DNA of 64,000 bases from Clostridiales bacterium (GTDB lineage: Bacteria; Bacillota; Clostridia; Oscillospirales; Acutalibacteraceae), in the NCBI GenBank assembly GCA_021199275.1, contig JAJQIJ010000037.1, positions 14,154 through 78,153 of the forward strand, read 5' to 3'. How positions within the stretch are numbered: position 1 is the first letter of the stretch; every line of letters starts with the position of its first letter. A model generated the notes under the pieces. It was not told the origin of the DNA. It saw nothing but the letters and a program-made list of their open reading frames with translations, and did not search any database. A program made the position numbers and the translations under genes. Below, in pieces: positions 5,267 through 54,662 of this stretch.

Positions 5267-6535
5267 TTAAGGCACATATTCAAATTCAATGTCATACACA
5301 GACACCGTGTCGCCTTCCTTCATTCCCATTTCAAGCAATTTTTTTATTATGCCGCTGCCTTCAAGCACCCTTTGCAGGTATTCAAGGCTTTCATAGTCGT
5401 CAATATTAAGCCCTTTAAGCACCTTTGGAAACCAGCTTGCTTCAACTATATAATAATGCTCTTCCGGCATGGTAATGCAAAAATCAGAGTCGCCGGTAAT
5501 GCTTTGCAGCGGTATTTCCTCTCTTTCATATTCCTTAATCGGCGGCAGTTTTGAAAGAGCGCGTGCCGCCGCAGCCATAAGTTCGCCTGTGCCTTCGCCT
5601 ATAGGCGCGCATATAGGGTAAAATTCATAACCCAGTTTTTCAACCCAGCGCCTGAAATCGGCAACGGTTTCTTCACTTGCAAGGTCAATTTTTGTGCCTG
5701 CAACAATCTGCGGGCGCTCTGCAAGTTCCGGGTTGAACTTTTTAAGTTCTTCATTTATTTTTATAAAATCCTCTTTGGGGTCTCTTCCTTCAAAGCCGCT
5801 TACATCAACCAAATGCACCAGCAGCCGGCAGCGGTCTATATGCCTTAAAAATTCAAAGCCCAGCCCGGCCCCTGCCGCCGCGCCGTCTATCAGCCCGGGA
5901 ATGTCTGCAATTACAAACGAATTTTCGTCTGTAATTCTTACCACGCCCAAATTCGGGCTTAGCGTTGTGAAATGATAATCTGCAACTTTCGGCCTGGCGT
6001 TTGAAACCGCCGCAATAAGGCTTGACTTGCCGACTGACGGATAGCCCACTAAGCCAACGTCTGCAAGCAGCTTGAGTTCCAGCACCACTTCCCACTCTTC
6101 GCCGGGCACACCCGGCTTTGCAAAGCGCGGAGCCTGCCTTGTTGGCGTGGCAAAATGCTGGTTGCCAAGGCCGCCCCTGCCCCCTTTGGCTGCTATGAAA
6201 CGCTCTGTGGCGCTCATGTCTGCCATAATGGCGCCGCTGGAAGCTTCTTTTATAAGCGTTCCCCGCGGCACATTTATAACTAAATCCGGCGCGCTTTTGC
6301 CGCGCTTTCTGTCGCCGCCGCCGGGCAGCCCGTTTTTAGCTGCATATTTTCTTTTATATCTGAAATCGGCAAGGGTTGACAAATTGTCGTCAACAACAAA
6401 CACAACGTCGCCGCCCTTGCCGCCGTCTCCGCCGTCAGGCCCGCCTGAAGCCACATATTTTTCGCGGTGGAAAGCAACGGCTCCGTCGCCGCCGTTTCCT
6501 GCTTTAATTATTATTTTTGCTTTATCTATAAACAT
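5267..6535 (-). CDS. obg: GTPase Obg/CgtA
   Basis: Gly-rich N-terminal domain, GYPSVGKS, YHFTTL, DIPGL, C-terminal domain ending in IEFEY. Confidence 0.98.
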   Translation of the reverse strand: MFIDKAKIIIKAGNGGDGAVAFHREKYVASGGPDGGDGGKGGDVVFVVDDNLSTLADFRYKRKYAAKNGLPGGGDRKRGKSAPDLVINVPRGTLIKEASSGAIMADMSATERFIAAKGGRGGLGNQHFATPTRQAPRFAKPGVPGEEWEVVLELKLLADVGLVGYPSVGKSSLIAAVSNARPKVADYHFTTLSPNLGVVRITDENSFVIADIPGLIDGAAAGAGLGFEFLRHIDRCRLLVHLVDVSGFEGRDPKEDFIKINEELKKFNPELAERPQIVAGTKIDLASEETVADFRRWVEKLGYEFYPICAPIGEGTGELMAAAARALSKLPPIKEYEREEIPLQSITGDSDFCITMPEEHYYIVEASWFPKVLKGLNIDDYESLEYLQRVLEGSGIIKKLLEMGMKEGDTVSVYDIEFEYVP

Positions 6536-6788
6536 TTTATTACCTCAAAAACAACTTGGCAAAAAATGCCGCCCGCAATGGTGCGCCGCTTTCCCCATGG
6601 CAAAACAGGGCGGCTCATTACTATTTAAATATTAACAGAAATACATTCAAAATGCAACCGAGCGCGCCAAAATAATCTTGAAAATGAGATTTTCGGTAAA
6701 AAACAGCTTAAACAGCGTAAAATTGCCATGTAATGAACTTGTTTTTTTAAAATTTGATTATTTTTTTGAAAATAATACAAAAAATCAC

Positions 6789-6817
6789 TTGACAAAGCCT
6801 GTGAACTATGTTATCAT
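6789..6817 (+). promoter_or_regulatory. Strong sigmaA promoter with no downstream CDS
   Basis: TTGACA(6789-6794)-17nt-TATCAT(6812-6817) with extended -10 TG. Confidence 0.75.
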
Positions 6818-6823
6818 GTGATT

Positions 6824-6946
6824 ACAGTTAACGCTGCTGTAAACCTGTCGGCGTTAACGGTGCTCTTTAGGCAGGGGCATGGCTTTCTCTGCGTCTGCCG
6901 GTTTTAAAGAGCAAAAGCAGCCCTGAAATTCAGGGCTGCTTTTTTA
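6824..6946 (+). ncRNA. Candidate orphan small RNA (~120 nt, family not recognised)
   Basis: Lies between a consensus promoter and an intrinsic terminator; two hairpins (GTTAACGC/GCGTTAAC; GCTCTTTA/TAAAGAGC with inner GGCAG/CTGCC); no convincing ORF. Confidence 0.55.
6913..6946. terminator. Bidirectional intrinsic terminator (candidate sRNA / rsmE)
   Basis: AAAAGCAGCCCTG-AAATT-CAGGGCTGCTTTT followed by a T run. Confidence 0.85.
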
Positions 6947-6988
6947 TTTTTTAAACAGTGCGCAAACGGCGTTTCGGAAAAAAGACGC

Positions 6989-7717
6989 TTATTCCAAATT
7001 ACCTGTCAGCAGCATAATTGCAGTTAAAGCGGCAATCGGCGCAGTTTCACACCTTAATATGCGTTTGCCCAAGCCTGCCGTTTTGCCGCCGCGGCTTACA
7101 ATGCTGTCTATTTCGCTTTTGTCAAAGCCGCCCTCAGGCCCGATAAACACAGCTATATGCCGCGCAGACGGGCAGGCGCTGATTATATTTTTTATCGGCT
7201 CGCCGCCGCCTTCATAAAAAACTATAATTTGTTCCGCCTTACAGCTGCGCAGCGCTTCGTCAAATGCCAAGGTTTTGCCCACGCGCGGAACTATGCCGCG
7301 CCCGCTTTGCTGCGCGGCTTCAAGCGCAATTTTATTATAGCGTGCGTTTGCCTTTTCCGCCTGCTTTTCATCTGGGCGTTTTATGCTGCGCTTTGTTATA
7401 ACCGGCACAATTTCAAACGCGCCCATTTCAACGCTTTTTTGAATTATGTCTTCCATTTTGCCGCCCTTTGGCATGCTTTGGTAAAGACTTACCTTTACGC
7501 CGGGCTCGCAGTCGCTTTCTTTTTTATAACACACTGTTAAAAACGTGTTGCCCGGTTTTGTGCTTTCAAGCATGCAAACATATTCATAACCGCCGCCGTC
7601 TGTCAGCGTGATTAAATCGCCTTTTTTCATGCGCAGGCTTTTAACTATATGGCGGCTCTGCTCTTCGCCCAGCAATATTGTTTTTGAATCTATTGTTTCA
7701 ACAAAAAGCTTTTGCAT
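6989..7717 (-). CDS. rsmE: 16S rRNA m3U1498 methyltransferase
   Basis: HIVKSLRMK, QKSVEMG, EAAQQSGR, IGPEGGF, LGKRILRCETA. Confidence 0.96.
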   Translation of the reverse strand: MQKLFVETIDSKTILLGEEQSRHIVKSLRMKKGDLITLTDGGGYEYVCMLESTKPGNTFLTVCYKKESDCEPGVKVSLYQSMPKGGKMEDIIQKSVEMGAFEIVPVITKRSIKRPDEKQAEKANARYNKIALEAAQQSGRGIVPRVGKTLAFDEALRSCKAEQIIVFYEGGGEPIKNIISACPSARHIAVFIGPEGGFDKSEIDSIVSRGGKTAGLGKRILRCETAPIAALTAIMLLTGNLE

Positions 7718-18634: not shown

Positions 18635-18710
18635 GGGAGCATAGCTCAGCTGGGAGAGCATCTGCCTTACAAGCAGAGGGTCACAGGTTCGAGCCCTGTT
18701 GCTCCCACCA
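18635..18710 (+). tRNA. tRNA-Val (anticodon TAC)
   Basis: 76-nt cloverleaf GGGAGCA...TGCTCCC-ACCA, D arm TAGCTCAGCTGGGAGAGC, anticodon loop CTTACAA, T loop GGTTCGAGCC. Confidence 0.98.
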
Positions 18711-54329: not shown

Positions 54330-54600
54330 TCCTTTTGGGCATAAAAATTACGCCCCTGATATGCATAGGGGCGCATATTAAGCGCGGTACCACCCTATTT
54401 CGGCGGGAAAGCCCCCGCCCTTTAGCATCTGACAATGCCTTAACCTTTAACGCAGTTGCGCGTCTGCCCCTATGGCGAAAAACGCTTTCAAGGCAGCAGC
54501 TCCGCAGAGAGCTATTCATTATGCCCTTTGTGCCGGCTTGCAGCAAACGCCGGCTCTCTGTGACAAATAAGCATAATCTTTTTCTGCTTCACAGCCTTTA
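54330..54600 (-). promoter_or_regulatory. Leucine T-box riboswitch
   Basis: T-box AGGGTGGTACCGCG (plus strand 54383-54396), AG bulge (CAGAGAG), specifier loop containing CTC (Leu), terminator CGCCCCT...AGGGGCG then T-rich tail. Confidence 0.92.
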
Positions 54601-54662
54601 AGGTGAATTGATTTTATTAAAACACGCAGGAAACCGGCACTGGCGCCACCCTGCACATTCAT

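What the first reader, a model, noticed from the sequence alone, without database searches (positions are those of the whole stretch)
6789..6946. Orphan small RNA with its own consensus promoter, two hairpins and a terminator
TTGACA-17-TGnTATCAT points into a 120-nt stretch that folds into two clean hairpins and ends in a strong terminator (seen). It lacks the SRP, tmRNA, tRNA, T-box and 6S hallmarks that could be checked by eye. Only tiny ORFs exist (15 aa on +, 8 aa on -). An AATCAC...GTGATT inverted repeat brackets the promoter and may be an operator. A stand-alone, unclassified regulatory RNA divergent from obg is the simplest reading (inference).
Basis: partly seen in the sequence, partly recalled or inferred. 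Interest (0 to 1): 0.65.

Follow-up and report, generated by a model that had tools for sequence, protein, structure and literature searches.

The report
Sibling small RNA, not an orphan
The flagged stretch is very probably a real gene for a small regulatory RNA of about 122 bases. It is not an orphan: it is one divergent member of an uncatalogued family of at least a dozen small RNA genes in this gut Clostridia genome that share an unusual promoter and a CUUUCUCU loop.

Summary
A near-consensus extended -10 promoter (6789-6817, +) leads into about 122 nt that fold into two hairpins and a strong terminator (z -7.3; -4.0 without the terminator). Nothing in Rfam matches.

"Orphan" is wrong. The same promoter signature, CTTGACA-N6-GTGA-N3-RTGTTATYAT, occurs 13 times in this 1.86-Mb genome and 0 times in 60 congeners. 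Every complete copy drives a 75-130-nt terminator-ended RNA with CUUUCUCU in the hairpin just before the terminator. The finding carries that motif at 6883-6890.

One positional homologue exists, in a Logan metagenome contig (RsmE 75% identical). There the unit from promoter to terminator is 80% identical, against about 40% in both flanks. A 22-nt block around the motif is identical, as are both arms of the AATCAC/GTGATT repeat. The 15-codon ORF and the outer stem of hairpin 2 are not kept.

Best reading: a trans-acting, Hfq-independent, base-pairing sRNA that works like streptococcal csRNAs or Listeria LhrC1-5. Two sibling types carry tandem Spo0A boxes; this copy does not. It is a new family of a known kind and of moderate interest.

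The parts
6783..6788 (+). Left arm (AATCAC) of the inverted repeat that brackets the promoter; possible operator half-site
   Evidence: repeat I3. Identical in homologue L253. Absent from the sibling promoters.
6789..6794 (+). -35 hexamer TTGACA
   Evidence: Invariant in all 13 family promoters and in L253.
6801..6805 (+). GTGAA spacer motif, the signature of the sRNA promoter class in this genome
   Evidence: Among strict strong promoters it occurs only ahead of CUUUCUCU RNAs: 10 of 10 against 0 of 57. Conserved in L253 while the 6 nt before it diverged.
6809..6817 (+). Extended -10 element TGTTATCAT
   Evidence: The family consensus is RTGTTATYAT.
6818..6823 (+). Right arm (GTGATT) of the inverted repeat, between the -10 element and the predicted start
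   Evidence: Identical in L253.
6824..6861 (+). 5' hairpin of the RNA. The transcription start is inferred near A6824.
   Evidence: 89% identical in L253; 11 of 13 pairs kept and 2 broken.
6862..6912 (+). Hairpin 2. The outer stem (6862-6869 / 6905-6912) is specific to this genome; the inner stem (6870-6875 / 6894-6899) is conserved.
   Evidence: The outer stem is broken in L253 (7 of 8 pairs) and the inner stem is kept.
6882..6903 (+). 22-nt block GCTTTCTCTGCGTCTGCCGGTT, identical in the homologue; it holds the seed
6883..6890 (+). CUUUCUCU family motif at the apex of hairpin 2; proposed base-pairing seed
   Evidence: Mean unpaired probability 0.67 here, against 0.93-1.0 in types A and B.
6913..6949 (+). 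Intrinsic terminator: 14-bp stem, 3-nt loop, T-run. It is bidirectional and shared with rsmE.
   Evidence: In L253 it shows one compensatory pair (U-A to C-G) and one wobble change.

Best explanation
Window 6824 to about 6946 (+) is a stand-alone gene for a non-coding RNA of about 122 nt. It is transcribed by the housekeeping sigma factor from a very strong extended -10 promoter and ended by an intrinsic terminator.

It is the most divergent member, here called type D, of a lineage-specific family of sibling sRNAs. The family has types A to D and at least 13 full copies. All copies share the promoter CTTGACA-N6-GTGAA-N2-ATGTTATYAT. All display CUUUCUCU in the hairpin that precedes the terminator.

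Inferred mechanism: the exposed pyrimidine tract, in this copy GCUUUCUCUGCG, pairs in trans with purine-rich stretches of mRNAs. Likely sites are ribosome-binding regions of the GGAGAAAG(C) or AGAGAAAG type. Pairing would block translation or alter mRNA stability, without Hfq.

Type D probably has its own transcriptional control, through the AATCAC/GTGATT repeat around its promoter. Types B and C carry tandem Spo0A boxes instead.

Shown: the anatomy, the family membership, and conservation in one relative. Inferred: transcription, trans action, the targets and the regulator.
For: Promoter, fold and terminator are real and better than chance.

The promoter pattern occurs 13 times in the own genome, 0 times in 60 congeners and 0 times in the reversed-pattern control. 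Across 185,579 species genomes there are 9 single hits, and only one of them (L063) is a true sibling.

All 10 complete family promoters that pass the strict scan are followed within 130 nt by CTTTCTCT, against 0 of 57 other strong promoters (Fisher p = 4e-12; copies are paralogues, so this counts as 4 of 4 types).

Only 46 CTTTCTCT 8-mers exist on both strands of the genome. Of the 14 that are followed by a terminator, 13 are these units. The chance of one falling in a given 120-nt stretch is about 1e-3.

The motif sits in the apical loop in every type. Siblings show compensatory changes: 3 pairs in the type B 5' hairpin.

Positional homologue in L253: the unit is 80% identical (132 of 165), against 39-40% in the flanks and 57-60% at third codon positions of the neighbouring genes. 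The promoter is kept, the seed block is 22 of 22 identical, and the terminator has one compensatory pair.

The ATG of the 15-codon ORF is lost in L253. No Hfq gene was found in a genome that is 98.7% complete.
Against: There is only one homologue, so covariation in the body of type D is essentially untested. The outer stem of hairpin 2 and two pairs of hairpin 1 are not conserved.

In type D the motif is partly paired.

The exact complement AGAGAAAG is not enriched upstream of start codons: 5 of 46, against 24.5% for 8-mers of the same composition, which include the true Shine-Dalgarno words.

Target scans gave only 9-12-bp matches, at about the level expected by chance.

Covariance models of type D and type B found nothing in 144 congeners. 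The family is therefore very narrow.

The conserved terminator also serves rsmE, so it is not independent evidence for the sRNA.
Confidence: 0.55

Rival explanations
1. Protein-binding (decoy or sponge) RNA. The invariant CU-rich loops of the whole family would be binding sites for an RNA-binding protein, such as a KH- or S1-domain protein, which the RNAs titrate. They would not be seeds for mRNA pairing.
For: The same short motif is displayed in hairpin loops of many highly expressed copies. That layout is typical of protein sponges. No convincing mRNA target set emerged. There is no Hfq.
Against: No candidate protein was identified. One purine-rich small RNA (G000:C37:156144) has 13-15 nt of complementarity to the type A, B and C loops, which points to RNA-RNA pairing. 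Known CU-loop sibling sRNAs of Firmicutes act by pairing (PMC3091779, PMC5880928).
Confidence: 0.15
2. Local cis function. Strong convergent transcription from this promoter into the rsmE terminator would insulate obg from rsmE read-through, or interfere with it. The RNA product itself would be unimportant.
For: The unit sits exactly between the rsmE terminator and the obg promoter and shares a bidirectional terminator. It is absent from the relative whose rsmE-obg spacer is 92 nt.
Against: The best-conserved part is the internal 22-nt seed block and the 5' 36 nt of the transcript. Twelve or more siblings with the same promoter and motif lie in unrelated contexts.
Confidence: 0.1
3. Decaying or neutral paralogue. 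A family promoter cassette duplicated into the rsmE-obg junction, and its transcript has no function of its own.
For: The body of type D has no sequence similarity to types A, B or C beyond the 8-mer. Family loci are clearly in flux, with truncated copies, MITE insertions and a decayed B-like promoter upstream of the homologue.
Against: The unit is 80% identical against about 40% in the flanks, across a divergence at which third codon positions are only 57-60% identical. The seed block and promoter are fully conserved.
Confidence: 0.1
4. Small-protein gene: the 15-codon ORF at 6879-6926 encodes a micropeptide.
For: An ATG-initiated 15-codon frame exists (sequence).
Against: There is no properly spaced Shine-Dalgarno sequence. 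The ATG is CAACGC in L253. The siblings have no equivalent ORF.
Confidence: 0.02

Closest known systems
csRNAs (cia-dependent small RNAs, ccnA-E) of Streptococcus
   Same: Several sibling sRNA genes per genome in a Firmicute without Hfq. All are driven by very strong promoters with a shared signature. Each is a short RNA of stem-loops plus a terminator, with a pyrimidine-rich unpaired tract that can pair with translation initiation regions (PMC3091779, PMC8186281).
   Different: There is no sequence or Rfam relationship. No CiaR repeat TTTAAG-N5-TTTAAG lies upstream. The csRNA seed lies between two stem-loops and carries a conserved anti-AUG; here it lies in a hairpin loop and the CAU is not conserved. 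The shared promoter element here is inside the spacer (GTGAA).
LhrC1-5 of Listeria monocytogenes
   Same: Sibling sRNAs of a Firmicute with CU-rich motifs in loops, including the hairpin next to the terminator. They are controlled by a response regulator (LisR) and act on ribosome-binding regions (PMC5880928).
   Different: LhrC uses UCCC motifs, several per RNA. Here there is one CUUUCUCU per RNA. There is no sequence similarity or Rfam hit. The regulator differs: tandem Spo0A boxes for types B and C, and none for this copy.
RsaE/RoxS of Bacillales
   Same: A Firmicute sRNA with pyrimidine-rich seeds in loops that targets Shine-Dalgarno regions. This comparison rests on my own knowledge.
   Different: RsaE/RoxS is single-copy, has C-rich (CCCC) motifs and is widely conserved. 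There is no Rfam match here.

Membership tests
CUUUCUCU-loop sibling sRNA family of this genome (undescribed; types A-D) | Promoter CTTGACA-N6-GTGA-N3-RTGTTATYAT | tested here: met
   Exact match at window 6788-6817 (G000:C29:20941-20970). It is one of 13 matches in the genome.
CUUUCUCU-loop sibling sRNA family of this genome (undescribed; types A-D) | CUUUCUCU at the apex of the hairpin immediately 5' of the terminator | tested here: met
   6883-6890, at the apex of hairpin 2. It is partly paired; mean unpaired probability 0.67.
CUUUCUCU-loop sibling sRNA family of this genome (undescribed; types A-D) | Stand-alone unit of 75-130 nt ending in an intrinsic terminator, with no downstream gene on the same strand | tested here: met
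   The next gene, rsmE, is convergent.
CUUUCUCU-loop sibling sRNA family of this genome (undescribed; types A-D) | Sequence homology of the transcript body to other members | tested here: not met
   BLAST finds only the promoter (39 nt, 85%). The type B covariance model does not hit it. Membership therefore rests on promoter, motif and architecture.
Spo0A-box-linked subset (types B and C) | Tandem TGTCGAA-N3-TGTCGAA 43-47 nt upstream of the -35 element | tested here: not met
   There is no TGNCGAA on either strand in window 6500-7000.
csRNA (Rfam RF02379) | Match to the covariance model | tested here: not met
   No hit even at E <= 10.
csRNA (Rfam RF02379) | CiaR direct repeat TTTAAG-N5-TTTAAG upstream of the -10 element | tested here: not met
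   No + strand match within 2 mismatches near 6700-6800.
csRNA (Rfam RF02379) | Conserved anti-SD plus anti-AUG in an unpaired region | tested here: inconclusive
   CAU-GG-CUUUCUCU is present here, but the CAU is lost in L253.
Housekeeping and other catalogued RNAs (6S, tmRNA, SRP, RNase P, T-box, riboswitches, LhrC, RsaE) | Rfam covariance-model match | tested here: not met

The most novel reading that the evidence does not exclude
This uncultured gut Clostridia lineage has a dedicated promoter class, TTGACA-N6-GTGAA-N2-ATGTTAT, that drives only small RNA genes. There are about 17-20 of them, in types A to G. This forms a sibling-sRNA regulon. Part of it (types B and C) is wired to the sporulation master regulator Spo0A through perfect tandem 0A boxes. 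It is possibly buffered by a purine-rich sponge RNA (G000:C37:156144). The flagged RNA would be the separately controlled member, with its own operator.
Probability: 0.3. Interest if true: 0.6.

Novelty: new member of a known kind. Interest (0 to 1): 0.42.

Why it matters
Almost nothing is known about riboregulation in uncultured gut Oscillospirales and Eubacterium-like Clostridia.

This case gives a concrete and testable set:
- a family of at least 13 sibling sRNAs with one invariant seed;
- a promoter signature that picks them out of the genome with no false positives;
- a plausible link of two subtypes to Spo0A.

It also shows that an apparent orphan sRNA can be assigned to a family through its promoter and seed, even when the transcript body has diverged beyond recognition. 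The general mechanism, pyrimidine-seed sibling sRNAs in Firmicutes, is already well known.

Tried and rejected
1. Rfam at gathering score and at E <= 10, on the finding and on ten sibling loci: only terminator-driven noise.

2. BLAST of the unit in 40 relatives: only terminator stems matched.

3. Synteny through Obg in 35 congeners and through RsmE in 80 metagenome loci: no rsmE-obg adjacency and no sRNA.

4. Covariance models of type B (R1) and of the type D hairpins (R2) in 144 congeners: only generic terminators, or nothing.

5. Promoter pattern in IMG/VR: of 64 hits, 63 are one conserved coding stretch of a marine phage gene family, which is a coincidence. The remaining one, L205, is promoter-like.

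6. One pattern search used a mistyped motif and is uninformative.

8. Target prediction by duplex energy and by contiguous-pairing scans: too noisy to name targets.

9. Small-protein reading: rejected, because the start codon is lost in L253.

10. Rex, CRP, cre and SigH readings of the GTGAA spacer were considered by eye and dropped for poor fit to their consensus. This is inference only.

12. The look-up of encoding contigs for the window's own RsmE returned nothing.

Full report
**Observation.** The + strand of window 6789-6817 carries TTGACA, a 17-nt spacer and TATCAT, preceded by TG. That is 11 of 12 consensus positions. From about 6824 the sequence folds into a 38-nt hairpin and a 51-nt hairpin. 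A 14-bp terminator stem (6913-6943) with a T-run follows. The whole gives -61.8 kcal/mol, z = -7.3, and no shuffle out of 200 folds as well. Without the terminator the values are -37.0 kcal/mol and z = -4.0.

Rfam 15 gives nothing at gathering score. Below it there are only terminator-driven noise hits. The neighbours are obg (5267-6535, minus) and rsmE (6989-7717, minus). The terminator is bidirectional and also ends rsmE. The description is therefore accurate.

**Not an orphan.** BLAST of the unit against its own genome (G000: 1.86 Mb, 40 contigs, 45% G+C) matched a second promoter at 85% over 39 nt. Scanning the genome showed a tight promoter class, CTTGACA-N6-GTGA-N3-RTGTTATYAT.
- It occurs 13 times in G000, with 0 matches to the reversed control pattern.
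- It occurs 0 times in 60 species of the same genus.
- Across 185,579 species genomes it occurs only 9 times, each a single hit. One of these, a 3.2-kb contig (L063), carries a genuine sibling; the rest are unrelated.
- 63 of the 64 IMG/VR matches are a conserved coding stretch of a marine phage gene family, which is a coincidence. The other, L205, looks like a promoter.

Every complete copy of this promoter drives a short RNA of 75-130 nt that ends in a terminator. In each, CUUUCUCU sits in the apical loop of the hairpin that precedes the terminator. By transcript sequence the copies fall into types:
- A: six copies, one with a decayed promoter;
- B: four copies;
- C: two copies in the genome, plus L063;
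- D: the finding;
- two further copies cut off by contig ends.

Among strict strong promoters, 10 of 10 with the GTGA spacer are followed by the 8-mer, against 0 of 57 without it. The copies are paralogues, so the fair count is four types out of four. The 8-mer occurs only 46 times on both strands of the genome. Of the 14 occurrences followed by a terminator, 13 are these units. In the finding the motif lies at 6883-6890, at the apex of hairpin 2. Finding it by chance in 120 nt has a probability of about 1e-3.

The siblings behave like RNAs. The type B 5' hairpin has three compensatory pairs. The loops are invariant while the stems and linkers vary. None of the types matches Rfam.

**Conservation of the finding itself.** The genus is deep: the best Obg identity is 74%. 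The region upstream of obg differs in every congener. RsmE relatives in JGI metagenomes reach at most 63% identity and have other neighbours. Covariance models of type B and of the type D hairpins found nothing in 144 congeners.

A search of the 5.8-billion-protein collection gave one closer RsmE, at 75% identity (P0002). Its 2.5-kb Logan contig (L253, run SRR32865906) has rsmE, a 614-nt spacer and obg. The spacer holds a homologue of the finding in the same place and orientation. It has the promoter TTGACA-17-TATTAT with TG.

| Region compared between G000 and L253 | Identity |
|---|---|
| Unit, from the AATCAC arm to the terminator T-run | 80% (132 of 165) |
| Flanks on either side | 39-40% |
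| Third codon positions of rsmE and obg | 57-60% |

These elements are identical in the two sequences:
- the -35 element;
- the GTGAA motif, although the six bases before it have all but one changed;
- both arms of the AATCAC/GTGATT repeat;
- a 22-nt block (6882-6903) that contains the motif.

The first 36 nt of the transcript are nearly identical.

The terminator keeps 13 of 14 pairs, with one compensatory change. The inner stem of hairpin 2 is kept. Seven of the eight outer pairs of hairpin 2 and two pairs of hairpin 1 are broken. The ATG of the 15-codon ORF is lost.

A more distant relative (Obg 78%, GCA_965308915.1, L256) has rsmE and obg only 92 nt apart and no sRNA. The gene was therefore inserted at this junction before G000 and L253 split, and it has been maintained since.

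**Mechanism.** The anatomy matches that of the sibling base-pairing sRNAs of Firmicutes: many copies, strong shared promoters, one invariant pyrimidine tract displayed in a loop next to the terminator, and no Hfq gene. The closest working analogues are the streptococcal csRNAs (PMC3091779, PMC8186281) and LhrC1-5 of Listeria (PMC5880928).

I therefore propose trans pairing of GCUUUCUCUGCG with purine-rich mRNA segments. This step is inferred, and the support is weak:
- The exact complement AGAGAAAG is not enriched before start codons.
- With one G.U pair the seed fits ribosome-binding sites of the GGAGAAAGC type, but such 9-12-bp matches are near chance level.
- For types A, B and C there is one striking partner. 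A small RNA at G000:C37:156144 has 13-15 nt of complementarity, and it could be a target or a sponge. Type D pairs with it over only 8 bp.

**Regulation.** Types B and C have perfect tandem TGTCGAA-N3-TGTCGAA repeats 43-47 nt upstream of the -35 element. TGTCGAA is the Spo0A box (PMC3485338), and the genome encodes Spo0A. Type D has no such box within 250 nt. It has the conserved inverted repeat around its promoter instead. That repeat may be an operator, but the evidence is two sequences. What reads the GTGAA spacer motif is unknown.

**Comparison and novelty.** The RNA is not a member of csRNA, LhrC, RsaE or any other Rfam family. It works like them in outline. It is a new, very narrowly distributed family of a known kind. 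Earlier notes of this scan describe analogous CU-loop sRNA families in other phyla. None concerns this DNA.

**Limits.**
- There is only one homologue, and no validated target.
- The organism is known only as an unnamed MAG. Its relatives are labelled Eubacterium sp. or Candidatus Eubacterium faecavium in NCBI records.

Noticed in passing
G000:C37:156144-156260 (+), outside the window: A strong promoter drives an RNA of about 85 nt. It has a GNRA hairpin followed by GAAGAGAAAGGTAGAGC, which is complementary over 13-15 nt (one G.U pair) to the loops of sibling types A, B and C. The 3' half of that tract forms the 5' arm of its own terminator. There is a 5-codon mini-ORF and no downstream gene. 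It is a possible sponge or target of the sRNA family.
   Followed up: partly
G000:C38:1196, C9:3590, C15:29519, C15:587, C24:11241, C12:89353: Perfect or near-perfect tandem Spo0A boxes (TGTCGAA-N3-TGTCGAA) lie 43-47 nt upstream of the -35 element of type B and C sRNA promoters. One more pair sits at C12:89353 without an sRNA. Spo0A is encoded at C6:58974-59285.
   Followed up: partly
G000:C9:57899(-), C37:176225(+), C15:39(-), C6:68887(+), C17:27707(-): Further sRNA-like promoter-to-terminator units have related promoters (ATTGACATTTTGAGTGAAnTGTGkTATTAA). They lack the CUUUCUCU motif. Three of them lie directly downstream of type B units.
   Followed up: no
window 6560-6660 (minus strand): The obg promoter TTGCAT-17-TAATAT (6656-6628) is conserved across the genus. 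In this genome it is followed by a leader of about 90 nt with a GC-rich hairpin and a T-run just before the obg ribosome-binding site. This is a possible attenuator, and most congeners lack it.
   Followed up: partly
L256 (GCA_965308915.1) 1542-1633; L253 788-1401; window 6536-6988: The rsmE-obg spacer is 92 nt without an sRNA in one relative, and 453 nt and 614 nt with the sRNA in G000 and L253. The sRNA gene looks like an insertion at this junction. Upstream of the L253 copy lies a decayed type-B-like promoter leader.
   Followed up: yes
genome-wide, for example G000:C9:3270-3410; window 35908-63713: A MITE-like multi-hairpin repeat of about 140 bp is present in well over 100 copies. It interrupts or abuts several sRNA loci, and in one case truncates a type C copy (C15:29319-29452).
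   Followed up: no
window 54364-54601 (-) and 18635-18707 (+): A T-box leader (130.5 bits) and a tRNA gene are the only Rfam gathering-score hits in the window.
   Followed up: no
L063 (JAJQIK010000017.1): This 3.2-kb contig, binned into an unrelated 3.1-Mb MAG, is about 92% identical to G000 C9:2812-3264. It carries an intact type C sRNA with 0A boxes after a Fic-domain gene. It is probably mis-binned DNA of a close relative of G000.
   Followed up: partly
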